Of a stretch of 32,000 bases of DNA, positions 1 to 24,699 are shown piece after piece (within the stretch, counting starts at the first letter, position 1; each line of letters begins with the position of its first letter). The notes beneath the pieces were generated by a model that searched no databases, was not told where the DNA came from, and was given only the letters and a program-made list of their open reading frames with translations. This stretch comes from Candidatus Saccharimonadota bacterium (GTDB taxonomy: Bacteria; Bacillota_I; Bacilli_A; Mycoplasmatales; Hepatoplasmataceae): positions 360,001 through 392,000 of the forward strand of contig AP027131.1 in assembly GCA_027925225.1 (NCBI GenBank), written 5' to 3'. The translations under genes and the position numbers were made by a program.

Positions 1-1115
1 CATGTTTCTGAAAATGAAAAATTAGTATCACTTAAAATTGCAATTCTATTTAATTGATTAGTATTTTTTAATCCTCATATTTCAAGTAAAGAAGAATCAC
101 TAATTGTAAAATCTTTTTCATTAGTAAAAGTTAAATATTGTAATACTCCAAAATAATTAATTGCAACATCAGAAATTATTTTATCTGTTTTTACAATATT
201 AAAAGTTGTTTGATTATTGTTTGCTATTTTAGATTTAAAAATTAAAAAATCATAATTTGAATAATTTTCACTTAATGTTGTATTAGTTCTATCATTAAGT
301 AATTTGTAATCAGGAAAAGAATACCCAGAAATTTTTTCTATACCTGTAAAAATATTATTTAAATTTGAGGGTTGAGCAAATTTTGTAAAAGTAATATCAT
401 AATCAGAAATAATACTCATATAAAAACCATAATAGTTTGAATTATTACTATTTGCAGAATTATAAGAAATATTATTAACCTTTTCTCCAATTAAGTTTAA
501 TCATCCATTTTTAAAGAAATCTGTAGTTTTATCATTTGTTGTAGATTTAAAAAAATAAATATTATTATCTGTTATTGAAAAGGGTAATATTTTTTCAGTT
601 AGACTTGCATCTTGATCTGGAATTAATTGAATTTCTTCTATTTCTTTTTCATCTTCTGTTTTTCCAGCTATACTATCAATTCCTATTTTTAAGGAATTAA
701 AAGTATTGTGGATTTTTTTGTGTTCATTAACATTTTCTTCATTTGCTGTTTTTTGATTTAAAGCAACACCAGAAAGTGATTCTAACGAAGAATCAAAAAG
801 AGAAACAGAAGAAGTGTCTATTTCTACTTCATTTTCAGATAATTTATTAATTTTTTTATTATTTAAAAATTTTTTTGATTGATTAAAAACTTCATTCCTA
901 ACTTTAATTAAATTTGTGTCATTTTCGGCACTTTTAATATTAATATTATTTAAACTAGTTTGATTTGTTTTAATATTAATATTTTCTAATTCTTTTACAT
1001 CTAATTTTTTAAAAGGCTTAGAAAACATTTGATTTTCATTTTTTTTAATTGGTGTAAAATTATTATTTTCTTTATTTAAATTTTCGAATTTATTTGTTGT
1101 TTTTTTTAATTTCAT
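1..1115 (-). CDS. Giant-repeat fibre-like protein family, paralog A. The N-terminal 371 codons are in the window and the C-terminus runs off the left edge.
   Basis: The ATG at 1113-1115 is preceded by AAGAGGAG. Track ORFs 501..1115 and 75..419 share one frame and are joined only by in-frame TGA (501-503, 75-77). I found no TAA/TAG in that frame from 1115 down to position 3. The protein aligns with the modules of the next gene (LESLSG..NQ..A.EENVN.H, LIPDQDASL, GWLNLIGE, SDYDITFTKFAQPSN, SSLLEIW). Confidence 0.85.
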
Positions 1116-7400: not shown

Positions 7401-10101
7401 AAATAAATTGATAATTAGTTCATGTTTCTGAAAACACAAAATTAGTATCGCTTAAAATTGCAATTTTATTTAATTGACGATTATTTTTAAATCCTCATAT
7501 TCCAAGTAAAGAAGAATCGCTAATTGTAAAATCTGTTTCACTAGTAAAAGTTAAATATTGTAATGTTCCAAAATAATTCATTGCAACATCAGAAATTATT
7601 TTATCGGTTTTAACAACATTAAAAGTTGTTTGTTGATTATTAATTACCTGTGATTTAATTATTAAAAAATCATAATTTAAATAGCTTTCACTCAGTGTTG
7701 TAGTTGTTCTGTCATTAAGCTGAATATTAGAAAATGGATATGCAGAAATTCTCTCTATACCCGTAAAAGAATTACCTTGGTTTGAAGGTTGAGCAAATTT
7801 TGTAAAAGTAATGTCATAATCAGAAACAACATTCATATAAAAACCATAATAATTTGAATTATTACTATTTGAAGCATCGCAAATACTATTATTAACATTT
7901 TCGCCAATTAAATTTAAACCAGTATTTGCAAAAAAATCTCTATTTGCAACACTTGTTGAAGATCTTAAAAAATAAATATAATTATTAGTTATTGGATAAG
8001 GTAATGTTTTTTCAAGTAAATTTGCAATTTGATTTGAAATTAAATTAATTTCCTCAAAGGGTTCTTCATCTACAACTTTTCCTGATATGTTATTTATTAT
8101 CTGATTAAAATTATCAATAGAATCATTAATATATTTATGATCATTAACATTTTCTTGATTTGCTATTTCTTGATTTATTGCAGTACCAGAAAGTGATTCT
8201 AATGAAGGGTCAACAAGTGTTACAAGAGAAGTTTTACTATTTCCTCCCATATCAGATCATTCTGTAATTGTTTGATCACTTAAAGTAAGTTGTGGATAAT
8301 TATAGGTTCCTTCTTCTATTGTAGTTAAGTCTATATTATTTTGATTAACATTGGCATTTGTTGCATCTAAATCAGCTTGATTTGCTTTTAAAGAAATGTC
8401 TTCTTTATTTTTATTAATTTGTATTAAAGAAGGATTTATTCCAAGTGTAGGATTTAAATTACTATCATCAGTTATTTCACTTGATTTTGAAGCGGCAACT
8501 AAACTTTCTGATGGTCAGTTTGTTATAACTTTACCATTTAAAGTAAGTTTTTGATAATCATAAGTCCCATCTTCTATTTCATTTAAATCAGCGTGTACAC
8601 TTTTATTAACTTGCTCTTGATTATTTCCTCCTTCAAGCGAAGAATCTACTGTTGGTATTTTTGAAGTACCTAAACTTGAAACTCAATTTTCAAAAATGTG
8701 ATTAATTCCATAAATTTCTACATCAGTTAATTTTCCATCAACATTATTAAAAGTACCCTCTAATTCATTTTTTAAAACCACGATACTTCTTCCATCTATT
8801 GAAAATTTAATATTTATATTTAAAGCTATTGAATTTGTTGGTATTAAAACACCGCCTAAAACTCCACTTATGTAATAAGAAACAAAAATAAATTGATAAT
8901 TAGTTCATGTTTCTGCAAATGAAAAATTAGCAGCATTTAAAATTGCAATTCTTCTTAATTGACGATTATTTTTAAAACCTCATATTCCAAGTAAAGAAGA
9001 ATCACTAATTGTAAAATCTGTTTCACTAGTGAAAGTTAAATACTGTAATGTTCCAAAATAATTCATTGCAACATCAGAAACTATCTTATCTGTTTTTACA
9101 ATATTAAAGTTTGTTTGTTGATTATTTGCTATCTGAGATTTAATTATTAAGAAATCATAATTCAAATAACTTTCACTTAATGTTGTAGTTGTTCTGTCAT
9201 TAAGATTCACACTAGAAAAAGAATATCCAGAAATTTTTGCTATTCCTCTGAAAGCATTAGAAGAATTTGAAGGTTGAGCAAATTTTGAAAAAGTAATGTC
9301 ATAATCAGAAACAACACTAGCAAAAATACCAATATAATTTGAATTATTACTATTTGAAGAATTGTAGAGAGTAGTATTAAAATTTTCACCAATCAAATTT
9401 AATCCTGCGTTTTTAAAAAAAACTTCATTTGAAGTAGATGATAAACATTTTAAAAAATAAACATCATTATTTGTTATTGGATAAGGTAATGTTTTCTCAG
9501 CTAGACTTGCATCTTGATCAGGAATTAAATCAATTTCTTCAAATGCTTCTTCATCTGCTATTTTCCCTAATATATTATTTATTTCTAGCGAAAAACTACT
9601 AACAGTATTGTTAATAGAAATATGATCATTTACATTCTCTTTATTTGCAATTTCTTGATTTACTGCAGTTCCGGAAATTGACTCTAATGAAGAATTACTT
9701 AATACTAAAAGTGAAGTATCAGTTATTTCTTCATTAATAGATTGATTTTCTGTAATTTGATTTTTTAAAATAGATTTTGAAAAATCATTTAATGATTTAT
9801 TTTTTATTGATTTTAAATTTAATATTTTTTGATTTTTATTTAAATCAATATTTGTTTTATTTGATATATTTTGATTAATATTTTTTCTATTATTAGAAAA
9901 AATAATTTTCTTTGTTTTATTTATTTCTTGTTGAGAATTTACATTTTTAAAAGTTTTATCAACAGGAATAATTTTTGTGTTTTGAAATTTCCTTATATTT
10001 AATTTTAAGGGGTCTTTCTTAATAGATGTATTTTTATTAATTTCTAAATTACTAGTTTTATCTAAAGTTTTAGAGTTTTTTTTTGTTTTTTCAAATTTCA
10101 T
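1468..10101 (-). CDS. Giant modular repeat protein, paralog B (2877 aa with TGA=Trp). It has four ~330-aa beta-rich 'SDYD...LLGIW' globular modules, a GINPY short-repeat array, and a coiled-coil/tail-fibre-like C-terminal tip.
   Basis: I split every line from 10101 down to 1468 into codons in the frame whose plus-strand triplets start at 1 mod 3. No TAA/TAG occurs until the TAG at 1468-1470, and there are many in-frame TGA. All seven track ORFs (8980..10101, 7495..8250, 7030..7278, 6010..6351, 3172..3555, 2410..2751, 1552..1944) lie in this one frame. The ATG at 10099-10101 is preceded by AAAGAGGGA, with an in-frame upstream TAA at 10120-10122. Confidence 0.88.
3170..5460 (-). repeat. In-frame tandem array of ~170-180 bp (about 57-60 aa) 'GINPYLIQTQTN...LNTEV...IIDGTTP' units. 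It is interrupted three times by 'Y-D/N-Y/F-P-x-[IL]-[TN]-L-N-G-x-x-[IV]-[TE]-x-W' units.
   Basis: The string gtttgaattaaataaggatttattcc recurs near 3265, 3441, 3613, 3773, 3951, 4401, 4580, 5001, 5180 and 5370. The interrupting units lie near 4040-4100, 4660-4700 and 5460-5500. This array forms the 2.1-kb extra length between module anchors 6010 and 2410. Confidence 0.85.
6010..9700 (-). repeat. 1485-bp (495-aa) direct repeat modules inside paralog B.
   Basis: The 'LLGIW' TGA anchors at 8980, 7495 and 6010 are spaced exactly 1485 bp. The 'LES[LI]SG.A[IV]NQEIA..ENVNDH' anchors near 9690, 8205 and 6720 are spaced about 1485 bp. Stretches such as 5941-6120, 7441-7620 and 8941-9120 are nearly identical at DNA level. 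Further copies lie at 1950-3130 and in paralog A (1-800). Confidence 0.85.
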
Positions 10102-10219: not shown

Positions 10220-10372
10220 AAATTAACACAATATATTTTTATTTATAATATCTTTTTTTGTTTTATATTCTAGTTTATATTTATTGAATTAAATTTTCTA
10301 TCTTATATTTAAAATTAAATCTAAAAATTCAATCAAAGTAATTTTAATGTTTTTTTATTATTTATATTAAAT
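10220..10372 (-). promoter_or_regulatory. Conserved upstream block, copy 2 (likely promoter plus leader of paralog B).
   Basis: See copy 1. The proximal leader is also homologous: ttattttaataaaaatatacacacgcaaaaaa here versus ttattttaaaaataaatatcacacataacaaa in copy 1. Confidence 0.55.
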
Positions 10373-10424: not shown

Positions 10425-13400
10425 TTATGCTTCTCTTTTTCAAATATAAAATTTATTTTCTTTATTTTTAAGTAAATATTTAGAAAAATCAAATGTTTTA
10501 TTTTCTGATAATTTTCCCATATTAATTCAAATTCCATATTGAGGAGAATCTGAAGAAATAATAATACTATCTATAGGTAAATATAATTTTTTAATAATTT
10601 CATTTAAATTATTAATTTGATCTTGAACATTTTCGTTAATTAATTCTTGCGTTTCTCCATCTTTTATTATTTTATTCATTGATAAAATATTTGAAGTATT
10701 AGAAGTTGTAGAAAGAAAATTTGTTGCATTCATTAATTCTGCTATATTACTTGTATTTTCATCAATTTGAGTTTTTCAAGGGTTTATTCCTTGAAGTGGA
10801 TTTGTAGCACTATTATCTATTGTTAATGAAGAAGAAGAATTTATTTGAATTGTTCCATCTATTATATCTTCTATATTTTCAGTATTATTTGATATAGCAA
10901 CCGCATTTGCATCAATTTCAGATTTTCAAGAATTTATTCCTTCTGTTGAATTCGTTTCACTATCATCAATTAATTCTGAAGTATTAGTAATTAGAGTAAT
11001 AGATGTTGTTCCATCTATTATTCCTGCAATGTTTGCTGCATTTTCTGTTATTCCAATTGCATTTTCATCAATTTGAGTTTTTCAAGGATTTATTCCTTGA
11101 AGTGGATTTGTAGCACTGTCATCTGTTGTTAATGAAGAAATAGAATTTACTGAAGTTGTCCCATCAATTAAATCTTCTATATCTGCAGAATTTGCTGCTA
11201 TGCTTGAAGCATTTGCTGCAATAGCAATTACATTTGCATCAATTTGAGTTTTTCAAGAATTTATTCCTTCTGTTGAATTCGTTTCACTATCATCAATTAA
11301 TTCTGAAGTATTAGTAATTAGAGTAATAGATGTTGTTCCGTCTATTATTCCTGCAATGTTTGCTGCATTTTCTGTTATTCCAATTGCATTTTCATCAATT
11401 TGAGTTTTTCAAGGATTTATTCCTTGAAGTGGATTTGTAGCACTGTCATCTGTTGTTAATGAAGAAATAGAATTTACTGAAGTTGTCCCATCAATTAAAT
11501 CTTCTATATCTGCAGAATTTGCTGCTATGCTTGAAGCATTTGCTGCTATAGCAATTACATTTTCATCAATTTGAATTTTTCAAGGGTTTATTCCATCATC
11601 TGGATTTTCTTCACTATCATCTGTTAATAAAGATGAAGAAGAAGCACCGCCTGAAGGCCAAGCAGTAATTGATTCTCCAGCTAATGTTAATTTTGAATAA
11701 TTAAAAGTTCCATCTTCTATTGAAGCAATTTCTGCAGCATTTTCTGTTATTCCAATTGCATTTTCATCAATTTGAGTTTTTCAAGGGTTTATTCCTTGAA
11801 GTGGATTTGTAGAACTATCATCTGTTGTTAATGAAGAACGAGAAGTTACTGAAATTGTTCCATCAATTATGTCTGCTATATCTGCAGAATTTGCTGCTAT
11901 AGCAATTACATTTTCATCAATTTGAGTTTTTCAAGGATTTATTCCATCATCTGGATTTTCTTCACTATCATCTGTTAATAAAGATGAAGAAGAAGCACCG
12001 CCCGAAGGTCAAGCAGTAATTGATTCTCCAGCTAAAGTAATTTGAGAGAAATCAAAGTCTCCAGTTTTAATTGAATCTAAATCTTCAGTATTTTGACTAA
12101 CTTCAGCACTTAAATCGTCCAATGCATCATCAACATATAATTTGGGAACTGCAGAGCTATCACTTATAGGAAGAAGCACATCACCATTACTATGAATTAA
12201 ATTAATACTATCAGCTAAGATTCTTAATTCTGCATCTTCACTTGTAGTTAGATCTGTTTTTCTAATAAAAGGCGAACCATCTTCTGCATAACCAAATTCT
12301 GCTTCTTGGTTAAGCTCTTCATCTAGAAAATAATCATCTAATTTATCTTCTATTTCTAAAAGTTTAGGATTTATTCCTTCTTCTGGATTTGTTTCACTAT
12401 CATCAGTTATTCCTGAAGAAGCAGAAGCCCCATCACCCGAAGGTCAAGATGTTATTATTTCTCCATTTAAACTAATTTGAGGAAAATCAAAGTCTCCAGT
12501 TTCAATTGAATTTATATCATCGGTATTTTCATCAATTGCAGTTTTTCAAGGGTTTATTCCTTCAGTTGGATTTGTTTCACTATCATCAGTTATTCCTGAA
12601 GAAGCAGAAGCCCCATCACCCGAAGGTCAAGATGTTATTGAATTTCCATTTAAATTAATTGAATCAAAAGCAACATCTCCGCTTAACATTCCTGCTATAT
12701 CATCTGTATTTATATCAATTGCAGTTTTTCAAGGATTTATTCCTTGAAGTGGATTTGTAGAACTATCATCTGTTGTTAATGAAGAACGAGAAGTTACTGA
12801 AATTGTTCCATCAATTATGTCTGCTATATCATCGGTATTTTCATCAATTTGATTTTTTCAAGGATTTATTCCTTCGGTTGGATTTGTTTCACTATCATCA
12901 GTTATTCCTGAAGAAGCAGAAGCACCATCACCCGAAGGTCAAGATGTTATTATTTCTCCATTTAAACTAAGTTGAGGGAAATCAAAATCTCCAGTTTCAA
13001 TTGAATTTATATCATCGGTATTTTCATCAATTGCAGTTTTTCAAGGGTTTATTCCTTCGGTTGGATTTGTTTCACTATCATCAGTTATTCCTGAAGAAGC
13101 AGAAGCCCCATCACCCGAAGGTCAAGATGTTATTATTTCTCCATTTAAACTAAGTTGAGGGAAATCAAAGTCTCCAGTTTCAATTGAATTTATATCATCA
13201 GTGTTTTGACTAACTTCAGCACTTATATCACCCAATAAATTGTCAACATATAATTTAGGAACTGCAGAGCTATCACTTATAGGAAGAAGTACATCACCAT
13301 TACTATGAATTAAATTAATACTATCAGTTAAGATTCTTAATTCTGCATCTTCACTTGTTGTTAGATCTGTTTTTCTAATAAAAGGTGAACCGTTTTCTGT

Positions 13401-16400
13401 ATAACCAAATTCTGCTTCTTGATTAAGCTCTTCATCTAGAAAATAATCATCTAATTTATTTTCTATTTCTAAAAGTTTAGGATTTATTCCTTCGGTTGGA
13501 TTTGTTTCACTATCATCAGTTATATCTGAAGAAGCAGAAGCCCCATCACCCGAAGGTCAAGATGTTATTATTTCTCCATTTAAACTAAGTTGAGGAAAAT
13601 CAAAGTCTCCAGTTTCAATTGAATTTATATCATCGGTGTTTTCATCAATTGCAGTTTTTCAAGGGTTTATTCCGTCATCTGGATTTGTTTCACTATCATC
13701 TGTTATTTCTGAAGAAGCAGAAGCCCCATCACCCGAAGGTCAAGATGTTATTATTTCTCCATTTAAACTAAGTTGAGGAAAATCAAAGTCTCCAGTTTCA
13801 ATTGAATTTATATCATCAGTGTTTTGACTAACTTCAGCACTTATATCGCCCAATAAATTATCAACATATAATTTAGGAACTGCAGAGCTATCACTTATAG
13901 GAAGAAGTACATCACCATTACTATGAATTAAATTAATACTATCAGTTAAGATTCTTAATTCTGCATCTTCACTTGTTGTTAGATCTGTTTTTCTAATAAA
14001 AGGTGAACCGTTTTCTGTATAACCAAATTCTGCTTCTTGGTTAAGCTCTTCATCTAGAAAATAATCATCTAATTTATTTTCTATTTCTAAAAGTTTAGGA
14101 TTTATTCCTTCGGTTGGATTTGTTTCACTATCATCAGTTATTCCTGAAGAAGCAGAAGCCCCATCACCCGAAGGTCAAGATGTTATTATTTCTCCATTTA
14201 AACTAAGTTGAGGGAAATCAAAGTCTCCAGTTTCAATTGAATTTATATCATCGGTGTTTTCATCAATTGTAGTTTTTCAAGGGTTTATTCCGTCATCTGG
14301 ATTTGTTTCACTATCATCAGTTATTCCTGAAGAAGCAGAAGCCCCATCACCCGAAGGTCAAGATGTTATTATTTCTCCATTTAAACTAAGTTGAGGGAAA
14401 TCAAAGTCTCCAGTTTCAATTGAATTTATATCATCAGTGTTTTGACTAACTTCAGCACTTATATCGCCCAATAAATTATCAACATATAATTTAGGAACTG
14501 CAGAGCTATCACTTATAGGAAGAAGTACATCACCATTACTATGAATTAAATTAATACTATCAGTTAAGATTCTTAATTCTGCATCTTCACTTGTTGTTAG
14601 ATCTGTTTTTCTAATAAAAGGTGAACCGTTTTCTGTATAACCAAATTCTGCTTCTTGATTAAGCTCTTCATCTAGAAAATAATCATCTAATTTATTTTCT
14701 ATTTCTAAAAGTTTAGGATTTATTCCTTCGGTTGGATTTGTTTCACTATCATCAGTTATATCTGAAGAAGCAGAAGCCCCATCACCCGAAGGTCAAGATG
14801 TTATTATTTCTCCATTTAAACTAAGTTGAGGAAAATCAAAGTCTCCAGTTTCAATTGAATTTATATCATCGGTGTTTTCATCAATTGCAGTTTTTCAAGG
14901 GTTTATTCCGTCATCTGGATTTGTTTCACTATCATCTGTTATTTCTGAAGAAGCAGAAGCCCCATCACCCGAAGGTCAAGATGTTATTATTTCTCCATTT
15001 AAACTAAGTTGAGGAAAATCAAAGTCTCCAGTTTCAATTGAATTTATATCATCGGTATTTTGACTAACTTCAGCACTTATATCGCCCAATAAATTATCAA
15101 CATATAATTTAGGAACTGCAGAGCTATCACTTATAGGAAGAAGTACATCACCATTACTATGAATTAAATTAATACTATCAGTTAAGATTCTTAATTCTGC
15201 ATCTTCACTTGTTGTTAGATCTGTTTTTCTAATAAAAGGTGAACCGTTTTCTGTATAACCAAATTCTGCTTCTTGGTTAAGCTCTTCATCTAGAAAATAA
15301 TCATCTAATTTATTTTCTATTTCTAAAAGTTTAGGGTTTATTCCTTCGGTTGGATTTGTTTCACTATCATCAGTTATTCCTGAAGAAGCAGAAGCCCCAT
15401 CACCCGAAGGTCAAGATGTTATTATTTCTCCATTTAAACTAAGTTGAGGAAAATCAAAGTCTCCAGTTTCAATTGAATTTATATCATCGGTATTTGCATC
15501 AATTGTAGTTTTTCAAGGGTTTATTCCGTCATCTGGATTTGTTTCACTATCATCTGTTATTTCCGAAGAAGCAGAAGCCCCGTCACCCGAAGGTCAAGAT
15601 GTTATTATTTCTCCATTTAAACTAAGTTGAGGAAAATCAAAGTCTCCAGTTTCAATTGAATTTATATCATCGGTATTTGCATCAATTGTAGTTTTTCAAG
15701 GGTTTATTCCGTCATCTGGATTTGTTTCACTATCATCAGTTATATCTGAAGAAGCAGAAGCCCCATCACCCGAAGGTCAAGATGTTATTATTTCTCCATT
15801 TAAACTAAGTTGAGGAAAATCAAAGTCTCCAGTTTCAATTGAATTTATATCATCGGTGTTTTCATCAATTGTAGTTTTTCAAGGGTTTATTCCATCATCT
15901 GGATTTGTTTCACTATCATCAGTTATATCTGAAGAAGCAGAAGCACCATCACCCGAAGGTCAAGATGTTATTATTTCTCCATTTAAACTAAGTTGAGGGA
16001 AATCAAAATCTCCAGTTTCAATTGAATTTATATCATCGGTGTTTTCATCAATTGTAGTTTTTCAAGGATTTATTCCTTCGGTTGGATTTGTTTCACTATC
16101 ATCTGTTATTCCTGAAGAATTTAAATTTATTGTAATTGTTCCATCAATTATATCTGCTATATCATCTGCATTTGCATCAATTGTAGTTTTTCAAGGGTTT
16201 ATTCCATCATCTGGATTTGTTTCACTATCATCTGTTATATCTGAAGAAGCAGAAGCACCATCACCCGAAGGTCAAGATGTTATTATTTCTCCATTTAAAC
16301 TAAGTTGAGGGAAATCAAAGTCTCCAGTTTCAATTGAATTTATATCATCGGTGTTTTCATCAATTGTAGTTTTTCAAGGATTTATTCCTTCGGTTGGATT

Positions 16401-19400
16401 TGTTTCACTATCATCTGTTATTCCTGAAGAATTTAAATTTATTGTAATTGTTCCATCAATTATATCTGCTATATCATCTGCATTTGCATCAATTGCAGTT
16501 TTTCATGGATTTATTCCTTCTGTTGGATTTGTTTCACTATCATCTGTTATATCTGAAGAAGCAGAAGCCCCATCACCCGAAGGTCAAGATGTTATTATTT
16601 CTCCATTTAAACTAAGTTGAGGGAAATCAAAATCTCCAGTTTCAATTGAATTTATATCATCGGTGTTTTCATCAATTGTAGTTTTTCAAGGATTTATTCC
16701 TTCGGTTGGATTTGTTTCACTATCATCTGTTATTCCTGAAGAATTTAAATTTATTGTAATTGTTCCATCAATTATATCTGCTATATCATCTGCATTTGCA
16801 TCAATTGCAGTTTTTCATGGATTTATTCCTTCTGTTGGATTTGCTTCACTATCATCTGTTATATCTGAAGAAGCAGAAGCCCCATCACCCGAAGGTCAAG
16901 ATGTTATTATTTCTCCATTTAAACTAAGTTGAGGAAAATCAAAGTCTCCAGTTTCAATTGAATTTATATCATCGGTGTTTTCATCAATTGTAGTTTTTCA
17001 AGGATTTATTCCTTCGGTTGGATTTGTTTCACTATCATCAGTTATATCCGATGAAGCAGAAACCCCATCACCCGAAGGTCATTCTGTTATTGTGTCTCCA
17101 CCTAATGTTAATTTCGGAAAATCAATATTTCCACCTTGAATATCTTCAATATCTGATTTATTTGCTCTATTTATTGCTTCTTGATCACCTCCGCCTTCTG
17201 CAGTAGAACTAGTAGCTAAAATATCTGAAGTATAAAGTGTTCCGCCACTTCCGCCTGAAGGTCATTCTGTTATTGTGTCTCCGCCTAATGTTAATTTCGG
17301 AAAATCAATATTTCCATCTTGAATATCTCCAATATCTGAAGTATTATCTTCAATACTTGTTTTATTTGCTTTATTTATTGCTTCTTGATCACTTCCACCT
17401 TCTGAAGCAGAACTAGTAGCTAAAATGTCTGAAGTATAAAGTGTTCCGCCACTTCCTCCTGAAGGTCATTCTGTTATTGTATCTCCACCTAATGTTAATT
17501 TTGGAAAATCAATATTTCCTTCTTGAATATCTCCAATATCTGAAGTGTTTTGACTAATATCTGAAGTATTATCTTCAATACTTGTTTTATTTGCTCTATT
17601 TATTGCTTCTTGATCACTTCCGCCTTCTGAAGAAGAACTAGTAGCTAAAATATCTGAAGTATAAAGTGTTCCGCCACTTCCGCCTGAAGGTCATTCTGTT
17701 ATTGTATCTCCACCTAATGTTAATTTTGGAAAATCAATATTTCCACCTTGAATATCTCCAATATCTGAAGTATTATCTTCAATACTTGTTTTATTTGCTC
17801 TATTTATTGCTTCTTGATCACTTCCGCCTTCTGAAGAAGAACTAGTAGCTAAAATGTCTGATGTATAAAGTGTTCCGCCACTTCCTCCTGAAGGTCATTC
17901 TGTTATTGTATCTCCACCTAATGTTAATTTCGGAAAATTAATATTTCCATCTTGAATACTTTCAATATCTGATTTGTTTGCTCTGTTTATTATTTCTTGA
18001 TTATTTCCGCCTTCTGAAGTAGAACTAGAAGCTAAAATATCTGAAGTATAAAGTGTTCCGCCACTTCCATCTGAAGGCCATTCTGTTATTGTGTCTCCAC
18101 CTAATGTTAATTTTGGAAAATTAATATTTCCATCTTGAATATCTCCAATATCTGAAGTATTTTGACTAATGTCTGAAGTATTATCTTCAATACTTGTTTT
18201 ATTTGCTCTATTTATTGCTTCTTGATCACTTCCGCCTTCTGAAGTAGAACTAGAAGCTAAAATGTCTGATGTATAAAGTGTTCCACCGCTTCCATCTGAA
18301 GGCCATTCTGTTATTGTGTCTCCACCTAATGTTAATTTTGGAAAATTAATATTTCCATCTTGAATACTTTCAATATCTGATTTGTTTGCTCTGTTTATTA
18401 TTTCTTGATTACTTCCACCTTCTGAAGCAGAACTAGAAGCTAAAACGTCTGATGTATAAAGTGTTTCGCCGCTTCCATCTGAAGGTCATTCTGTTATTGT
18501 GTCTCCATTTAAAGTAATTGATGTAAATGGTAAATCGCCACCTATAAGATCTGCTATATCTGAAGCATTATCAGCAATATTTGAAGTATTTGTTGCAATG
18601 TCTGAAGTATTTGTTGCAATATTTGATTTATTTAATTCATTTATTATTTGTTGATTGCTTCCGCCTTCTAATGTAGAACTAACAGCAGTAATATCTGATG
18701 TTGAATAATCTTCTTCGCCAACTGAAGGTCATTCTGTTATTGTATTGCCATTTAAAATTAATTGTGGATAACTAATAATTCCACTTTTAATATCTAAAAT
18801 ATCTGAAGCATTTTTATCAACATTTACTTTATTTGCTTCATTTATTATTTGCTGAGTTCTTCCACCTTCTGCAGCAGAACTAACAGCATCAATATTTGAG
18901 GTTAAAGAATTTTCTCCTCCATCTGAAGGTCATTCTGTTATTGTGTCTCCATTTAAAGTAATTGATGTAAATGGTAAATCGCCACCTATAAGATCTGCTA
19001 TATCTGAAGAGTTTTTATTAATTTCAGAAGAATTTGCTGAAATTGTTTCTTTATTTAATTCATTTATTATTTGTTGAGTACTTCCACCTTCTAATGTAGA
19101 ACTAACAGCAGTAATATCTGATGTTGAGTAATTTTCTTCTCCGCCTGAAGGTCATTCTGTTATTGTGTCTCCATTTAAAGTAATTGATGTAAATGGTAAA
19201 TCGCCACCTATAAGATCTGCTATATCTGAAGCATTATCAGCAATATTTGAAGTATTTGTTGCAATGTCTGAAGTATTTGTTGCAATATTTGATTTATTTA
19301 ATTCATTTATTATTTGTTGGTTGATTCCGCCTTCTAATGTAGAACTAACAGCAGTAATATCAGAAGTTAAGTAATTTTCTTCTCCGCCTGAAGGCCATTC

Positions 19401-22400
19401 TGTTATTGTATCCCCGTTTAAAGTAATTGATGTAAATGGTAAATCTCCACTTATAAGATCTGCTATATCTGAAGCATTATCAGCAATATTTGAAGCATTT
19501 TCTGCAATGTCTGAAGTATTTGTTCCAATATTTGATTTATTGACTTCATTTATTACTTGTTGATTACTTCCTCCCTCTGATATAAAATTAACAGCCAAAA
19601 TATCTGAAGTTAAAGAAGACTCGCTTCCACCTGAAGGTCAAGAATCTATTGTATCTCCATTTAAATTAATTGATGTAAATGGTAAATCGCCACTTACAAG
19701 ATCTGCTATATCTGAAGTATTTGTTTCAATGTTTTCTTTATTTGATTCATTTATTATTTGTTGGTTTGCTCCACCTTCTAGTGTAGAACTAACAGCAGTA
19801 ACATCTGATGTTGAAGAGGCTCCTCCACTTCCGCCTGAAGGTCAAGAAGTAATTGTTTCTCCGTCTAAAATTAATTGTGGATAGTCAATAAGTCCACTTT
19901 CAATATCTGATATTTCTGAAGCATTTTTATCAATATTGATTTTGTTTGCTTCATTTATTATTTGTTGAGTATTTCCACCCTCTAATGTAGAACTAACAGC
20001 AGTAACGTCTGATGTTGAGGAAGCTCCTCCTTCTCCATCTGAAGGTCAGGTAGTAATTGTTTCTCCATTTAAGGTAATTGATGTAAATTCTAAATCTCCA
20101 CTTGTGATATCAGATATATCAGATTTATTTTCTAATATATCACTTGCATTTTCATCAATTGCAGTTTTTCAAGGATTTATTCCTTCGGTTGGATTTGTTT
20201 CACTATCATCTGTTATACCTGAAGAAGCAGAAGCTCCATCACCCGAAGGTCAAGAATCTATTGTATCTCCGTTTAAATTAATTGATGTAAATGGTAAATC
20301 TCCACTTACAAGATCTGCTATATCTGAAGTATTTGTTTCAATGTTTTCTTTATTTGCTTCATTTATTATTTGTTGGTTTGCTCCACCTTCTAGTGTAGAA
20401 CTAACGGCAGTAACATCTGATGTTGAAGAGGCTCCACCACTTCCGCCTGAAGGTCAAGAAGTAATTGTTTCTCCGTCTAAAATTAATTGTGGATAGTCAA
20501 TAAGTCCACTTTCAATATCTGATATTTCTGAAGCATTTTTATCAATATTGATTTTGTTTGCTTCATTTATTATTTGTTGAGTATTTCCACCCTCTAATGT
20601 AGAACTAACAGCAGTAACGTCTGATGTTGAAGAAGCTCCTCCTTCTCCATCTGAAGGTCAGGTAGTAATTGTTTCTCCATTTAAGGTAATTGATGTAAAT
20701 TCTAAATCTCCACTTGTAATATCAGATATATCACTTGCATTTTCATCAATTGCAGTTTTTCAAGGATTTATTCCTTCGGTTGGATTTGTTTCACTATCAT
20801 CTGTTATACCTGAAGAAGCAGAAGCCCCATCACCCGAAGGTCAAGTATTTATTGTTTCTCCATTTAAGGTAATTGATGTAAATTCTATATCTCCACTTGT
20901 AATATCAGATATATCAGATTTATTTTCTAATATATCACTTGCATTTTCATCAATTGCAGTTTTTCAAGGATTTATTCCTTCGGTTGGATTTGTTTCACTA
21001 TCATCAGTTATGCCCGAAGAAGCAGAAGCTCCATCACCCGAAGGTCAAGTATCTATTGTTTCTCCATTTAAATTAATTGATGTAAATTCTAAATTTCCAC
21101 TTGTAATATCTGCTATATCTGAAGCATTTTCATCAATTGCAGTTTTTCAAGGATTTATTCCAAAGGTTGGATTTGAAATACTATCATCTTCTGTTGAAGA
21201 AGAAACAGAATTTGTTAGAATTGTTCCATCTATTATTTTTGCTATATCACTTGCATTTTCATCAATTGTAGTTTTTCAAGGATTTATTCCTTCAGTTGGA
21301 TTTGTTTCACTATCATCTGTTATTCCTGAAGAAGCAGAAGCTCCATCACCCGAAGGTCAAGTATCTATTGTTTCTCCATTTAAATTAATTGATGTAAATG
21401 GTAAATCTCCACTTATAATATCTGCTATATCTGAAGTATTTGTATCAATACTTTCTTTATTTACTTCATTTATTAATTGTTGGTTTGCTCCGCCTTCTAA
21501 AGCAGAATCAACGGCTAAAAGATCTGATGTTGAAGAAGCTCCGCTTCCTCCCGAAGGTCAAGTGCTTATTGACTCTCCATTTAAAGTGATTTCTGTAAAA
21601 CCTAATTCTCCACTTCTAATATCTTCCATATCTGAAGTGTTTGATTCAATATTTTCTTTATTTAATAAATTTATTATTTGTTGATTTGCTCCACCTTCTA
21701 AGGCAGAGCTTACAGGAATAATATCTGATGTTGAAAAAGCCGAAGGTCAATTACTTATTGGTTGTTCATTTAAAATTAATTGAGGATAACTATTTAGGCC
21801 ACTTTTAATTTCTGCTATATCTTCTGCATTTTTATTAATACTTACTTTGTTTGCTTCATTTATTATTTGTTGATTTGCTCCACCCTCTGAAATAGAACTG
21901 ACTGCAATTATATCTGAGGTTGAAGCCCCATTTGCACCCGAAGGCCAAGTATCTATTGTTTCTCCATTTAAATTAATTTCTGTAAAAACAAATTCTCCAC
22001 TTGTAATGCTAGATATATTTGAAGTATTAGAAGCAATATTTGAAGTATTAGAAGCAATATTTGAAGTATTTGTATCAATACTTTCTTTATTTGATTCGTT
22101 TATTGATTGTTGATTTTCTCCACCTTCTAAAGCAGAATCAACGGCTAAAAGATCTGATGTTGAAGAAGTTCCGCCACTTCCGCCAGAGGGTCAAGTATCT
22201 ATTGTTTCTCCATTTAAGGTAATTGATGTAAATTCTAAATCTCCACTTGTGATATCTGCTATATTTGAAGCATTTGTCTCAATATTGATTTTATTTGCTT
22301 CATTTATTATTTGTTGATTTGCTCCACCTTCCAATGTAGAACTAACAGCAATAATGTCTGATGTTGAAGAAGTCCCACCACTTCCGCCCGAAGGTCAAGA

Positions 22401-24278
22401 AGTAATTGTTTCTCCGTCTAAAATTAATTGTGGATAGTCAATAATTCCACTTGTAATATCTTCTATATTTGAAGCATTTGTCTCAATATTGATTTTATTT
22501 GCTTCATTTATTATTTGTTGAGTATTTCCACCCTCTAATGTAGAACTAACAGCAGTAATGTCTGATGTTGAAGAGGCTCCGCCTTCTCCGTCTGAAGGTC
22601 AAGAAGTAATTGTTTCTCCATTTAAAGTTATTTCCGTAAAAGCAATATCTCCACTTATAATATCTGATATATTTGAGGTATTAGAAGCAATATTTGAGGT
22701 ATTTGTTGTTATATTTACTTTATTTGTTTGATTTATTAATTGCTGATTTTCTCCACCCTCTAGGGTAGAATTTACAGCAGTAATGTCTGATGTTAAAGAA
22801 GCTCCTCCTTCTCCACCTGAAGGTCAGGTTTCTATTGTTTCTCCATTTAAGGTAATTGATGTAAATTCTAAATTTCCACTTGTGATATCTGCTATATCAT
22901 CTGTGTTTGTATCAATTGCAGTTTTCCAAGGATTTATTCCAAAGGTTGGATTTGAAATACTATCATCTTCTGTTGAAGAAGAAACAGAATTTGTTGTAAT
23001 TGTTCCATCCATTATTCCTGTTATATTATTTAAATTTGTATCAATTTGAGTTTTTCAAGGATTTATTCCATTTGTTGGATTTGCACCACTGTCATCTGCT
23101 ATGCCCGAAGATGTTGATGCTCCCTCACCCGAAGGTCAAGTATCTATTGTTTCTCCATTTAAGGTAATTGATGTAAATTCTAAATTTCCACTTGTGATAT
23201 CTGCTATATCATCTGTGTTTGTATCAATTGCAGTTTTTCAAGGATTTATTCCTTCGGTTGGATTTTCTTCATTATCATCTGCTATGCCCGAAGATGTTGA
23301 TGCTCCGTCACCCGAAGGTCATTCTGTTATTGTATCTCCACTTAATGTTAATTTTGGGTAATTAAAATCACCTCTTGTAATATTTGCTATATCATCTGTG
23401 TTTGTATCAATTGCAGTTTTTCAAGGATTTATTCCAAAGGTTGGATTTTCTTCGCTATCATCTTCTGTTGAGGAAGAAACAGAATTTGTTGGAATTGTTC
23501 CATCTATTATTCCCAATATATCATCTACGTTTTTATCAATTGCAGTTTTTCAAGGATTTATTCCTTCGGTTGGATTTTCTTCACTATCATCAGTTGCAGT
23601 TGAAGAAAAAACATTTATTGGAATTGTTCCGTCTATTATTCCCGATATATCATCTGCATTTTCATCAATTTGAGTTTTTCAAGGATTTATTCCATTTGTT
23701 GGATTTGTATCATTATCATCTCTTATTTGTGAAGCACTTGAAGCTCCGCTACCTGAAGGTCAGGTACTTATTGACTCTCCATTTAAAGTAAGTTGTGGAT
23801 AGTCAAAGGTTCCCTCTTTTATTGGTTCAAAATCAGTATTTAATTTATAGCTAGTAATTACATGTGAATCTTCTGTTGCAATAAATGGTGAATTAACACG
23901 ATTTTCAAAAGTAATTGCCGAAATACCACTTAGAGAAACATTAAGTCTAATATTTTTATTTGTGCTTTCATCTTTTGCTGCTATTAAAGGAGATGCATCA
24001 GATCCATAAGTAAAAAATCCAGATCTATTAAGGTCTGTATTTTTTAAAGTTTTATCTAATTTTGCATCTAAAATATTATTTGCAGACAAAGTAAGAGAAT
24101 CATAATTTAATACATTTTTATTTAATTCAAAATCCATTGGATTAAAAATCAAATTCTCTTTTTTATTTTTTGTATCCTGGATTTTTGCTTTTTTATTTAT
24201 TAAATTTTTATAATAAATAGATTTATTTAAATTATTATTTTTATTATTTTCTTTTTGATCTATATTTTTAGATTTCAT
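10425..24278 (-). CDS. Giant repeat protein, paralog C (4617 aa with TGA=Trp). It has a short unique N-terminal domain, about 13 kb of nested in-frame tandem repeats, and a coiled-coil/tail-fibre-like C-terminal tip.
   Basis: I split every line from 24278 down to 10425 into codons in the frame whose plus-strand triplets start at 0 mod 3. No TAA/TAG occurs until the TAA at 10425-10427, and there are dozens of in-frame TGA at conserved motif positions. Track ORFs 23760..24278, 22824..23012, 19152..19598 and 10527..10733 are all in this frame. The ATG at 24276-24278 is preceded by ACGAGGT, with an in-frame upstream TAA at 24297-24299. Confidence 0.88.
10890..11580 (-). repeat. 327-bp (109-aa) tandem duplication, near-identical.
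   Basis: The conserved 'NSW' TGA codons at 10926 and 11253 are 327 bp apart. Lines 10921-11240 and 11245-11570 match almost base for base. Confidence 0.8.
12840..15330 (-). repeat. 618-bp (206-aa) tandem repeat of about 4 copies. Each unit is two 183-bp GINPW/..SWPSG units plus one ~252-bp 'KLYVDN' module.
   Basis: The anchor (g/a)ttttgactaacttcagcac occurs at 13203, 13821, 14439 and 15057, spaced exactly 618 bp. Copies differ by only a few bases per 100. A more diverged extra KLYVDN module lies at 12090-12360. Confidence 0.9.
15330..16000 (-). repeat. 183-bp (61-aa) tandem repeat of about 4 copies (GINPWKTTID...GDFDFPQLSLNGEIITSWPSGDGASASS).
   Basis: The conserved TGA of 'TSWPSG' occurs at 15411, 15594, 15777 and 15960, spaced exactly 183 bp. 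Confidence 0.9.
15960..16900 (-). repeat. 312-bp (104-aa) tandem repeat of 3 copies, each a 183-bp unit plus an extra 129-bp GINPW unit.
   Basis: The conserved TGA occurs at 15960, 16272, 16584 and 16896, spaced exactly 312 bp. The track's plus-strand ORFs 16039, 16351 and 16663 mirror this period. Confidence 0.9.
17079..18490 (-). repeat. Variable-length tandem units of 183, 204 or 225 bp (GGSDQEAINRANKTSIEDNTSDI..GDIQ.GNIDFPKLTLGGDTITEWPSGGSGGTLYTSDILATSSS).
   Basis: The 'TEWPS' Trp codon occurs at 17079, 17262, 17466, 17691, 17895, 18078, 18303 and 18486. The successive spacings are 183, 204, 225, 204, 183, 225 and 183, so they differ by multiples of 21 bp. Two of these Trp codons are TGG (cca at 18078 and 18303) and the rest are TGA. 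Confidence 0.88.
18490..22900 (-). repeat. Array of roughly 200-240-bp units (STLEGG.NQQ.IN..NK..I..N.S.I..I.SG.L.FTSI.LNGETI.[TS]WPSGG...). It is intermixed with GINPW units near 20100-21400.
   Basis: This comes from reading the minus-frame translation. Recurrent plus-strand strings include ccaccttctaatgtagaactaacagcagtaa and gaaggtca(a/t/g). Units are more diverged than in the 12.8-17 kb arrays. Confidence 0.75.
22015..22080 (-). repeat. 21-bp (7-aa) perfect micro-tandem repeat nested inside a larger unit (SNTSNIA x about 3).
   Basis: gaagtattagaagcaatattt occurs at 22021-22041 and again at 22042-22062, followed by a partial third copy. Confidence 0.85.
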
Positions 24279-24418
24279 TATACCTCGTTTATTTTTTTAT
24301 TTACTATATTTAAAAGTTAATTAAAAATAGGAAATTATTTAAAAAACACTTTATAATAACTTCTTTAATGAATAATAGATTAATTAATAACAGAAAAACA
24401 TTTTGATTGTTTAAAGAC

Positions 24419-24462: not shown

Positions 24463-24600
24463 AATTTACTAATATATTTTTTTGAGTTTGTAATTTTATT
24501 TATTTTATACTTTATTTTATTTTGCTTGATTAAATTCAAAACTTAATCAAACTAATTTTAATATTTATTATATTAAAAAAAAATATTTTAATATTTTTTT
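24463..24600 (-). promoter_or_regulatory. Diverged third copy of the family's upstream block (upstream of paralog C).
   Basis: It shares aaattTACtaatatattttt, ttgattaaattc, aatcaaactaattttaat and tattatattaaa in the same order as copies 1 and 2. Identity is clearly lower and the offset from the ATG is 185 nt. Confidence 0.35.
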
Positions 24601-24666
24601 AAAATAAAAATTAAAGTGTAAAATTAAAAAAAGAAAAATTAAATAAAAAATTTAATATAAAAATGA

Positions 24667-24699
24667 TTTTTTTTTAAAAAAAAAAAATTATGATAAAAT
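24667..24699 (+). promoter_or_regulatory. Candidate promoter of the 24727 gene. A T9-A12 homopolymer pair is followed 3 nt later by an extended -10 (TGaTAAAAT).
   Basis: T run at 24667-24675, A run at 24676-24687, TG at 24691-24692 and TAAAAT at 24694-24699. The ATG is 27 nt downstream. The homopolymers occupy the -35/spacer position. Confidence 0.5.

What the first reader, a model, noticed from the sequence alone, without database searches (positions are those of the whole stretch)
10425..24278. A single 4617-codon ORF made almost entirely of nested in-frame tandem repeats
A 13,854-bp ORF is exceptionally large for a minimal-genome organism. After a ~170-aa unique N-terminal domain it consists of hierarchical repeats with periods of 618, 327, 312, 183, 183-225 and ~200-240 bp. 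All the exact periods I measured are multiples of 3. The repeats are assembled from three short motifs. The protein is acidic, rich in Ser/Thr/Asn/Asp/Gly, and I saw no Cys in the repeat body. I do not recognise it as a named adhesin family such as P1, P97, Vlp, Vsa or Gli, but I cannot search databases.
Basis: seen in the sequence. Interest (0 to 1): 0.8.

Follow-up and report, generated by a model that had tools for sequence, protein, structure and literature searches.

The report
Giant phage-fibre-like protein gene
A woodlouse-gut bacterium with a tiny genome carries a real 4617-codon gene, already published as a "giant repetitive ORF", that turns out to be a hugely amplified relative of virus tail-fibre proteins and probably forms a very long three-stranded rod.

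Summary
Read with TGA=Trp, 10425-24278 (minus strand) is one 4617-codon ORF, and every repeat period is a multiple of 3. It is not new as an object. The window is Candidatus Hepatoplasma vulgare Av-JP, and the ORF is HPAVJP_3240 (BDV02435.1). It is one of three tandem "giant repetitive ORFs" described by Kawato et al. 2024 (PMC10928387), who proposed adhesins and could not model these units.

My additions:
- Five modules (X, Y, Z, V, I) cover 86% of the protein. The "unique" N-terminal domain contains an I module.
- The family has only 48 members among 1.84 billion representative proteins. Several smaller members lie next to terminase, portal or DNA-polymerase genes on uncultured TGA=Trp phage contigs. 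One of these matches tail-fibre PHROGs.
- The linkers are Ile(a)/Asn(d) heptads, and their lengths change in steps of 7 residues. This explains the 183/204/225-bp periods and suggests a segmented trimeric coiled-coil fibre.
- The protein has no signal peptide or TM helix. The giants have an internally deleted C-terminal domain.

Most likely this is a phage tail-fibre gene that the cell captured and amplified, and now uses as a fibre. Its role (attachment, stalk skeleton or relic) is inferred. No module received a significant fold assignment.

The parts
10425..24278 (-). ORF A = HPAVJP_3240 (BDV02435.1). 4617 aa, 487 kDa, pI 4.05, no Cys, 82 TGA(Trp) codons.
24279..24300 (-). Shine-Dalgarno-like GAGG 7 nt upstream of the ATG of A. 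The AT-rich upstream region shares a conserved block with the region upstream of B.
   Evidence: read directly from the sequence
24069..24278 (-). Residues 1-70: Lys/Asn-rich basic N-terminus. This is the only truly unique N-terminal part, and it has no hydrophobic signal sequence.
23814..24068 (-). Residues 71-155: first I module (about 85-90 aa, motif FxY..SP.I...LR..).
   Evidence: local HMM; alignment
22809..23813 (-). Residues 156-490: X-Y and V-Y units (183- and 129-bp periods).
21348..22808 (-). Residues 491-977: X-Z units (204/225-bp periods). The Z linkers are Ile(a)/Asn(d) heptads.
20718..21347 (-). Residues 978-1187: X-Y units.
17070..20717 (-). Residues 1188-2403: mainly X-Z units (periods 183/204/225/243/408/429/612 bp), with linker lengths differing by whole heptads.
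15471..17069 (-). Residues 2404-2936: X-Y and X-Y-V-Y units (183- and 312-bp periods, up to 99.7% identical).
12096..15470 (-). Residues 2937-4061: 618-bp super-units (X-Y-X-Y-I) holding five further I modules, at 15063-15317, 14445-14699, 13827-14081, 13209-13463 and 12096-12350.
   Evidence: AF2 gives the I module as a 4-stranded sheet with pLDDT 80-93
10719..12095 (-). Residues 4062-4520: Y-rich / V-Y units (327-, 351- and 156-bp periods).
10596..10718 (-). Residues 4521-4561: C-terminal helical (coiled-coil-like) segment preceding the terminal domain.
10428..10595 (-). Residues 4562-4617: internally deleted C-terminal domain. It matches positions 2-40 of the family profile (E=5e-12) and the last strand (FYIWKREA). 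It lacks about 85 aa, including GQxIIGG..HxH..AYGLGxG.
1468..10101 (-). ORF B, a 2877-aa paralogue with X, Y, Z, I, four G modules and the same truncated C-terminus. By gene order it is probably HPAVJP_3230.
1..1115 (-). 5' part of ORF C, a third giant paralogue. Its full length is 2838 aa (P0015).

Best explanation
HPAVJP_3240 is a chromosomal, massively amplified member of a small protein family whose ordinary-sized members are tail-fibre proteins of uncultured TGA=Trp phages. Unequal recombination between in-frame shaft modules inflated it to 4617 aa. Two tandem paralogues of 2877 and 2838 aa arose alongside it. The product is predicted to be a long, very acidic fibre. It consists of short coiled-coil segments with Ile at heptad position a and Asn at d, a signature of trimeric stalks. 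These segments are interrupted about 50 times by a beta-hairpin (X: TLNGxxIxxWPSG) plus a loop (Y: DDSxxNPxxGINPW). Six small beta-sheet I domains are also inserted. The fibre ends in a stripped-down version of the family's C-terminal domain. The coiled-coil parts alone would span roughly 230 nm. I infer that the symbiont has kept these genes for its own use as a cell-associated fibre that helps it hold on to the host's gut-gland brush border. My sub-confidences are: real gene and identity, about 1.0; homology to phage fibre proteins, about 0.8; segmented trimeric coiled-coil architecture, about 0.6; attachment function, about 0.35.
For: Shown:
- The ORF is intact under code 4, and TGA and TGG alternate at the same positions.
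- It is an exact match to BDV02435.1.
- A and B each have a good SD sequence and a conserved upstream block.
- The family has only 48 members among 1.84e9 representatives.
- A matches phage-contig proteins directly, with E-values scaled to that library: P0008 2e-22, P0034 3e-13, P0020 1.5e-11, P0009 3.5e-9.
- Genomic contexts are phage-like. L006 has a terminase (8.5e-18). L002 has a terminase (3e-9) and a portal (8e-10). L003 has a DNA polymerase (3e-132) and Sak4. L004 has a portal (1e-6). All use in-frame TGA.
- P0034 combines tail-fibre PHROG hits (3.8e-22), five Y modules and the C-terminal domain.
- The heptad statistics give Ile 0.78-0.81 at a and Asn 0.74-0.81 at d. Linker lengths are 19/26/33/40, 18/25/32/39, 15/22/29 and 16/23.
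- AF2 puts helices on exactly these linkers and a hairpin on X.
- N@d layers are characteristic of trimeric stalks (PMC13580157).

Inferred:
- The attachment role rests on the known contact between Hepatoplasma and host microvilli (PMC4395229 citing Wang 2004) and on the adhesin proposal in PMC10928387.
Against: - The protein has no signal peptide, lipobox or TM helix (max KD19 1.28, against 3.18 in neighbour D). Surface display therefore has no known route.
- The C-terminal domain lacks its most conserved central part. That could mean decay rather than adaptation.
- dN/dS among units is only 0.5-0.8.
- No structural match reached significance: best Foldseek E=0.04 and TM<0.3, and AF2 mean pLDDT was 68-69.
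- No Pfam, PHROG or PDB sequence profile hits A itself.
- Trimerisation was not tested.
- There are no expression data.
- Copy numbers in the 99-100% identical arrays depend on a roughly 15x ONT assembly.
Confidence: 0.5

Rival explanations
1. It is still a phage part. On this reading, the giant genes belong to a cryptic prophage or a phage-derived particle (tailocin-like) of Ca. H. vulgare. They are made in the cytoplasm and released by lysis, which would explain the missing signal peptide.
For: The homologues lie in phage structural modules. Neither they nor A have export signals. At least seven family genes cluster between HPAVJP_2930 and _3240.
Against: The 32-kb window has no phage structural or replication gene, and A is flanked by anchored surface proteins and gatA. 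No Hepatoplasma homologue was found for the L006 terminase or for the fibre-adjacent gene. The giants have replaced the phage-type N-termini with basic low-complexity N-termini and have lost the core of the tip domain. At 4617 aa, A is 3.5 times the length of the longest phage homologue found (P0034, 1331 aa).
Confidence: 0.15
2. It is an intracellular cytoskeletal fibre. On this reading, the giant coiled-coil proteins stay in the cytoplasm and form the core of the stalk-like protrusion that Hepatoplasma inserts between host microvilli. They would work like HMW2-type coiled-coil proteins of the Mycoplasma pneumoniae terminal organelle (from my own knowledge).
For: A has no signal peptide or TM helix. 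It has long heptad-based segments. Its length of hundreds of nm is comparable to a stalk. Stalk-like appendages are reported for Hepatoplasma. The basic N-terminus could bind membrane or nucleic acid.
Against: No homology to any known mollicute cytoskeletal protein was found. Stalks have not been shown for H. vulgare itself. The other Hepatoplasma species have unrelated Ig-like giants. The idea is speculative.
Confidence: 0.12
3. It is a classical surface adhesin made of beta-sandwich repeats, unrelated to phages. This is the reading implied by the first reader and by the 2024 paper for the family as a whole.
For: Giant repeat proteins in host-associated mollicutes are often adhesins. The paper found Ig-like or beta-sandwich units in the giants of sister species.
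Against: The AF2 unit model shows helices, a hairpin and a small sheet, not a beta-sandwich. The paper itself could not model the H. vulgare units. A has no signal peptide or anchor. A has significant homology to phage-contig fibre proteins.
Confidence: 0.1
4. It is a non-functional runaway repeat expansion or an assembly artefact. On this reading, the ORF is long only because recently duplicated units have not yet acquired stops, or because the array was mis-assembled.
For: Many units are 97-100% identical. Constraint is weak, with dN/dS 0.5-0.8. The tip domain is deleted. ONT coverage was only about 15x, and the MAG has 42 Illumina structural variants.
Against: The frame stays open for 13.8 kb at about 32% GC, across units as diverged as 62-85%. 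Heptad register is preserved in every length variant. Three paralogues of 2838-4617 aa are all intact, with SD sites found upstream of A and B. Trp codons are conserved at motif positions.
Confidence: 0.08
5. It is an anti-phage decoy or receptor mask. On this reading, host-encoded fibre look-alikes occupy or shield the receptor used by the related phages.
For: A is homologous to the fibres of phages that probably infect such hosts. Hepatoplasmataceae invest in phage defence through CRISPR and R-M systems.
Against: The giants lack the central part of the terminal domain, which is the likeliest receptor-binding part. There is no PADLOC-type evidence (I did not scan). Extreme length is not needed for masking.
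Confidence: 0.05

Closest known systems
Giant repetitive ORF clusters of Hepatoplasmataceae (Kawato et al. 2024, Access Microbiol 6:000592.v3; PMC10928387)
   Same: This is the same object. The ORF is HPAVJP_3240 of Ca. H. vulgare Av-JP, one of three or four large repetitive ORFs in tandem. The paper reports tandem repeats of 11-195 aa, little similarity outside the family, and a suggested adhesin role.
   Different: The paper reports Ig-like or beta-sandwich units for sister species and no usable model for H. vulgare. In the text held it mentions neither phage tail-fibre relatives, nor heptad/coiled-coil linkers, nor the missing signal peptide, nor the truncated C-terminal domain.
Tail-fibre proteins of tailed phages, here an undescribed family from uncultured TGA=Trp phages (P0003, P0008, P0009, P0020, P0025, P0034, P0040)
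   Same: They share the I, X, Y and Z modules. They share the order Y module, then coiled coil, then C-terminal domain. Neither group has export signals. Homology is significant.
   Different: A is 3.5 to 28 times longer. It is chromosomal, with no phage genes nearby. Its N-terminus is basic and low-complexity rather than a virion-attachment domain. Its C-terminal domain is internally deleted.
Trimeric autotransporter adhesin stalks (YadA, UspA1, SadA)
   Same: Both are long fibres built from short coiled-coil segments with Asn at position d, interrupted by small beta elements. One phage relative hits Pfam YadA_stalk at 7e-6.
   Different: A has no signal peptide, no YadA-type beta-barrel anchor and no outer membrane in which to place one. 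A itself shows no sequence homology to TAAs.
T4 baseplate and short-fibre proteins gp10, gp11 and gp12 (C-terminal domains; Pfam 'Collar' PF07484)
   Same: The family's C-terminal domain gives its best, though non-significant, structural hits to the gp10 C-terminal domain (2fkk, 2fl8) and to BFVD baseplate and tail-collar proteins. It shares an 18-residue motif with gp11 (EIISESKPGYGTWNLLGA). It also has an HxH motif.
   Different: Nothing reaches significance (E from 0.04 to 2.1, TM below 0.3, no Pfam Collar hit). A lacks most of this domain.
Mycoplasma pneumoniae terminal-organelle proteins such as HMW2 (from my own knowledge)
   Same: Both are large, acidic, coiled-coil-rich mollicute proteins without signal peptides, in bacteria that attach through a polar protrusion.
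   Different: No sequence similarity was detected. Localisation of HPAVJP_3240 is unknown.

Membership tests
Hepatoplasmataceae giant repetitive ORF cluster (PMC10928387) | Encoded in a Hepatoplasmataceae genome | tested here: met
   Neighbours D, E and G are exact matches to HPAVJP_3250/3260/3280, and A is exactly HPAVJP_3240.
Hepatoplasmataceae giant repetitive ORF cluster (PMC10928387) | [quoted passage not shown] | tested here: met
   C (2838 aa), B (2877 aa) and A (4617 aa) are adjacent on the same strand.
Hepatoplasmataceae giant repetitive ORF cluster (PMC10928387) | Internal tandem repeats of 11-195 aa | tested here: met
   Units of 43-206 aa plus 7-aa heptad sub-repeats.
Phage tail-fibre proteins (uncultured TGA=Trp phage family) | Significant sequence homology to proteins encoded in phage structural gene modules | tested here: met
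   A against P0008, P0034, P0020 and P0009 gives E from 2e-22 to 3.5e-9, scaled to 1.84e9 proteins. The contigs carry terminase, portal or polymerase genes.
Phage tail-fibre proteins (uncultured TGA=Trp phage family) | Match to a curated tail-fibre profile (PHROGs) | tested here: inconclusive
   A itself has only weak hits (tail protein phrog_34969 at 0.0024; B C-terminus to phrog_8378 at 0.02). Relative P0034 hits phrog_25848 at 3.8e-22.
Phage tail-fibre proteins (uncultured TGA=Trp phage family) | Complete conserved C-terminal domain (LPxGxI..P.YGxW..GQxIIGG..HxH..AYGLGxG..WKR) | tested here: not met
   A and B keep profile positions 2-40 and the last strand only; about 85 aa are missing.
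Phage tail-fibre proteins (uncultured TGA=Trp phage family) | Gene lies within a phage or prophage structural module | tested here: not met
   No phage genes in the 32-kb window. No Hepatoplasma homologue of the phage terminase or the fibre-adjacent gene.
Phage tail-fibre proteins (uncultured TGA=Trp phage family) | Homotrimeric fibre that is part of a virion | not testable with these tools
   Only monomer AF2 was available. The heptad N@d pattern is indirect support for a trimer.
Trimeric autotransporter adhesins | N-terminal signal peptide and C-terminal YadA-type beta-barrel anchor | tested here: not met
   No hydrophobic N-terminus and no Pfam YadA_anchor or other hit.
Trimeric autotransporter adhesins | Coiled-coil stalk rich in Asn at heptad position d | tested here: met
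   Asn 0.74-0.81 at d and Ile 0.78-0.81 at a.
Mollicute adhesins and variable surface proteins (P1, P97, Vlp, Vsa, Gli) | Signal peptide, lipobox or TM anchor, and family-specific domains | tested here: not met
   Max KD19 is 1.28 with no TM helix. No Pfam family is above threshold.
Phage Tail Collar domain (PF07484) / T4 gp10-12 C-terminal fold | Profile match or significant structural match of the terminal domain | tested here: inconclusive
   No Pfam hit in A or in 35 relatives. Foldseek top hits are 2fl8 and 2fkk at E 0.5-0.8, and BFVD baseplate or tail-collar proteins at E 0.04-0.3 with TM below 0.3. The gp11 motif scores E=2.1.
Ig-like / beta-sandwich repeat arrays (as in the H. crinochetorum and H. 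scabrum giants) | Repeat unit folds as a beta-sandwich | tested here: not met
   The AF2 model of X-Y-I-X-Y shows helices, hairpins and one 4-stranded sheet. Mean pLDDT is 69, so this is low-confidence evidence.

The most novel reading that the evidence does not exclude
A symbiont with a 662-kb genome captured a phage tail-fibre gene. It removed the virion-attachment end and most of the tip domain, and amplified the shaft modules in heptad-preserving steps into three tandem giants of 2838-4617 aa, together 4.7% of the genome. It now deploys them, without any classical secretion signal, as the fibres or stalk core that hold it to the host's microvilli. This would be a new route from phage fibre to cellular attachment organelle in a wall-less bacterium.
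Probability: 0.3. Interest if true: 0.7.

Novelty: new variant of a known kind. Interest (0 to 1): 0.45.

Why it matters
The existence and repetitiveness of this ORF are already published, so the bare finding is not new. I could not find the following three results in the literature library: the link to phage tail fibres, the heptad-quantised coiled-coil architecture, and the lack of export signals.

If they hold, they change the working hypothesis for the largest genes of these symbionts from "beta-sandwich adhesin" to "domesticated phage fibre". They explain why monomer structure prediction failed. They give concrete experiments: trimer assays and immunolocalisation on woodlouse gut glands. 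They also expose a group of undescribed phages that use the mollicute genetic code, and these phages may be natural enemies of arthropod-associated mollicutes.

Tried and rejected
- **Code 25 (TGA=Gly):** rejected, because TGG and TGA alternate at the same motif positions.
- **Pfam, PHROGs and PDB-sequence profiles on A, B and single modules:** nothing significant.
- **My recollection that the C-terminus is a Pfam 'Collar' domain:** not supported by profiles. Structure searches point that way but are non-significant.
- **Fold search of the repeat-unit model:** no coherent match.
- **tblastn of P0003 and P0040 against 50,697 GenBank phages:** no match.
- **Y-motif DNA pattern in GTDB representative genomes and in IMG/VR:** 0 hits.
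- **C-terminal-domain DNA pattern in IMG/VR:** 3 hits, all chance matches in 59-67% GC contigs.
- **Prophage search in H. vulgare with the phage terminase and the fibre-adjacent gene:** no Hepatoplasma hit. These are word-indexed searches, so sensitivity is limited.
- **The look-up of encoding contigs for P0001:** not on record.
- **Literature look-up of the sample accessions of the phage contigs:** nothing found.
- **Not done:** I ran no PADLOC or NCBIfam scan.

Full report
**1. The observation**

With the standard bacterial code the region is broken into ORFs of under 400 codons. With TGA read as Trp, a single stop-free frame runs on the minus strand from the ATG at 24278 to the TAA ending at 10425, giving 4617 aa.

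It contains 82 TGA and 6 TGG codons. The two codons alternate at identical positions of the repeat motifs (IDTwPSG, ITEwPSD, INPwKTA). This supports code 4 and argues against code 25.

Tandem Repeats Finder and my own autocorrelation confirm periods of 129, 156, 183, 204, 225, 243, 312, 327, 408, 429, 495, 612 and 618 bp. All are multiples of three. The 618-bp array at 12828-15719 is over 99% identical between copies.

The protein is 487 kDa with pI 4.05. It is rich in Ser, Ile, Asp, Thr, Asn and Gly and has no cysteine.

**2. Where it comes from, and what is already known**

Three non-repetitive neighbours are exact matches to HPAVJP_3250, _3260 and _3280 of Candidatus Hepatoplasma vulgare Av-JP. 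My translation of the ORF is identical to BDV02435.1 / HPAVJP_3240, annotated as a "hypothetical protein".

The organism is a 662-kb mollicute from the midgut glands of the woodlouse Armadillidium vulgare.

Kawato et al. [quoted passage not shown] They suggest an adhesin role. They found Ig-like units in sister species but state that the H. vulgare units "could not be accurately predicted".

In this window the cluster consists of:
- C, which is cut by the window edge and is 2838 aa in full (P0015);
- B, at 1468-10101, 2877 aa;
- A, 4617 aa.

Together they encode 10,332 aa, about 31 kb or 4.7% of the genome. The existence of the giant repeat ORF is therefore not new.

**3. Anatomy**

I built local HMMs from seed motifs. 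Five module types cover 86% of A: 50 X, 41 Y, 25 Z, 6 I and 4 V.
- **X** has the motif GxxxF[PT]xLxLNGxxIxxWPSG.
- **Y** has the motif DDSxxNPxxGINPWKTxID.
- **Z** has the motif AVSSxLEGGxNQQIINExNK followed by NTSxIxx heptads.
- **V** has the motif IDGTIxxN.
- **I** is an ~90-aa module with the motif FGY..SPFI..AELRIL...LLP.SDS.V.KLYVD.

Only residues 1-70 and the last 56 lie outside these modules. The "unique ~170-aa N-terminal domain" is really a 70-aa Lys/Asn-rich basic segment followed by an I module. The 618-bp period is the super-unit X-Y-X-Y-I. The 312-bp period is X-Y-V-Y.

A and B each have a Shine-Dalgarno sequence, and their upstream regions share a conserved block. This fits duplication of whole expression units.

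**4. Relatives**

A word-indexed search of 5.8 billion proteins found three hits. An exhaustive phmmer search of 1.84 billion representatives with the relative P0003 found 48 hits.

Four more small paralogues are in H. vulgare itself: HPAVJP_2930, _2990, _3000 and _3020. The rest come from unnamed metagenome or SRA contigs. Where context could be read, those contigs are phage genomes that also use TGA=Trp:

| Contig | Size | Family member(s) | Phage evidence |
|---|---|---|---|
| L006 | 19 kb | P0008, P0009 (adjacent) | terminase, E=8.5e-18 |
| L002 | 17 kb | P0034 | terminase 3e-9, portal 8e-10, SSB |
| L003 | 11 kb | P0040 | DNA polymerase 3e-132, Sak4 |
| L004 | 32 kb | P0025 | portal 1e-6 |
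| L007 | 99 kb | P0020 | faint P22-portal hit, RNR small subunit, NrdI-type flavodoxin |

P0034 is the key linking protein. It has tail-fibre PHROG hits (phrog_25848, 3.8e-22), five Y modules and the family's C-terminal domain.

ORF A matches these phage proteins directly, with E-values scaled to the whole library: P0008 2e-22, P0034 3e-13, P0020 1.5e-11, P0009 3.5e-9.

The order "Y module, coiled coil, C-terminal domain" is the common architecture of the phage members.

None of these proteins resembles anything in 50,697 GenBank phages or in IMG/VR. The phages are therefore undescribed.

**5. Structure**

*Terminal domain.* AlphaFold2 on a 30-sequence alignment of the C-terminal domain gave mean pLDDT 68, with a confident core above 90 at residues 10-40 and 120-132. 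Foldseek found nothing significant. The top hits were nonetheless one-sided: the T4 gp10 C-terminal domain (2fl8, 2fkk; E 0.5-0.8), and BFVD baseplate, gp10-C-terminal, tail-collar and tail-fibre proteins (E 0.04-0.3, TM below 0.3). A profile search of PDB sequences picked out an 18-residue motif in T4 gp11 at E=2.1. I treat this as a lead only.

A and B retain just the confident core of this domain: profile positions 2-40 (E=5e-12) plus the last strand. They lack about 85 residues, including the near-invariant GQxIIGG...HxH...AYGLGxG. The small paralogues and all phage members keep these residues.

*Repeat unit.* AlphaFold2 on one X-Y-I-X-Y unit (17-sequence alignment, mean pLDDT 69) gave:
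- a four-stranded sheet for the I module (pLDDT 80-93);
- a hairpin for X;
- helices on KLLEIENKLDDYF, on KLYVDNLL...DDINSIE and on WKTAIDENTDDINSI.

The fold search of this model was uninformative.

*Heptads.* The helices prompted a heptad analysis. Counting back from each X hairpin:
- Ile occupies positions -6 and -13 (0.81, 0.78);
- Asn occupies positions -10 and -17 (0.81, 0.74).

This is a=Ile and d=Asn. Linker lengths fall into series separated by seven residues: 19/26/33/40 and 18/25/32/39 for Z, and 15/22/29 and 16/23 for Y.

This accounts for the DNA period series 183/204/225 and 201/222/243, which differ by 21 bp, or one heptad.

Asn at position d is a documented signature of trimeric coiled-coil stalks. 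It is abundant in trimeric autotransporter adhesins, and related polar-core motifs occur in the phage P22 tail needle (PMC13580157).

The helical linkers sum to about 1550 residues, or about 230 nm of coiled coil. The beta and loop parts would add to that (this is a rough estimate).

**6. What it most likely is and does**

*Shown:* A is an intact, probably expressible gene. It belongs to a tiny family whose ordinary members are phage tail-fibre-type proteins. It is built from amplified shaft modules, and the length variants respect heptad register.

*Inferred:* the product is a long trimeric segmented coiled-coil fibre that the cell retains for its own use.

The most plausible role is holding the symbiont at the host brush border. 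Hepatoplasma cells contact microvilli through stalk-like protrusions (Wang et al. 2004, cited in PMC4395229), and the genome paper also proposes adhesion.

The main difficulty is that A, B, C and the small paralogues have no signal peptide, lipobox or TM helix. The neighbours D and F have both a signal peptide and a C-terminal anchor.

Three alternatives therefore stay open:
- release by lysis as part of a phage-derived particle;
- an intracellular role as the skeleton of the stalk;
- slow decay of a captured gene.

Against a resident prophage, the window has no phage genes, and neither the phage terminase nor the conserved fibre-adjacent gene has a Hepatoplasma homologue in the searches I could run. 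Against pure decay, a 13.8-kb open frame persists across units as diverged as 62-85%, all three giants are intact, and register is preserved. Constraint is weak, however, with dN/dS of 0.5-0.8.

**7. Caveats**

- The MAG was assembled from about 15x of ONT reads longer than 5 kb and has 42 Illumina structural variants. Exact copy numbers in the near-identical arrays should be checked.
- Both AF2 models are of moderate confidence and are monomeric.
- No structural match is significant.
- The phage nature of the contigs rests on PHROG hits to one to three hallmark genes per contig.
- The hosts of those phages are unknown.

**8. Verdict**

The feature is real and was correctly described, but it is already published as a giant repetitive ORF of unknown function. 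I could not find its phage tail-fibre ancestry, its coiled-coil shaft with heptad-stepped lengths, its lack of export signals or its truncated tip domain in the literature library.

I rate it a new variant of a known kind (fibrous phage-fibre or trimeric-stalk proteins) and of moderate interest.

Noticed in passing
window 1468-10101 (-) and 1-1115 (-): The giant paralogues B and C each carry four copies of a ~350-aa globular 'G' module that A lacks. Its N-terminal ESISGxAxNQ motif recurs in the phage-contig proteins P0009, P0020, P0023 and P0044.
   Followed up: partly
window 24727-26232 (+) and 27340-30375 (+): HPAVJP_3250 and its neighbour have a signal peptide, 3-7 repeats of ~135 aa (NPYIE..GFEI..SLN.TGLAV) and a C-terminal TM helix. 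They look like classical anchored surface proteins with no Pfam family, and are arguably better adhesin candidates than the giant ORF.
   Followed up: partly
window ~24665-24690: A T12-A9 homopolymer tract lies in the divergent intergenic region between ORF A and HPAVJP_3250. It could be a slipped-strand expression switch.
   Followed up: no
window ~24520-24560 and ~10310-10350 (minus strand): The upstream regions of A and B share a conserved block (ATTAAAATTAsTTTGATT...). It may be a common promoter or regulatory element duplicated with the genes.
   Followed up: no
window 10450-23361 (+): Under code 4 the antisense strand of ORF A has stop-free runs of up to 644 codons. This is most likely a by-product of the repeat composition, not genes.
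   Followed up: no
window 31535-32000 (+): The 5' part of an amidase/GatA-type gene (Pfam Amidase, 8e-50) shows ordinary chromosomal context right next to the cluster.
   Followed up: yes
L001, L002, L003, L004, L006, L007: These are uncultured phage contigs of 11-99 kb with 24-30% GC that read TGA as Trp (up to 21 in-frame TGA per gene). They have no similarity to GenBank phages or IMG/VR. They are probably phages of arthropod-associated mollicutes.
   Followed up: partly
P0039 and P0040 (L003 1560-5027): In some phage members the C-terminal domain carries extra His-rich inserts (HTHTLTMDAHNHTQEAHNHQW), which suggests a metal-binding tip that varies between phages.
   Followed up: no
Ca. H. 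vulgare HPAVJP_2930, _2990, _3000, _3020 (outside the window): Four small paralogues of 163-681 aa keep the complete C-terminal domain. They lie within about 30 genes of the giant cluster, so this stretch of the genome is a fibre-gene island.
   Followed up: partly
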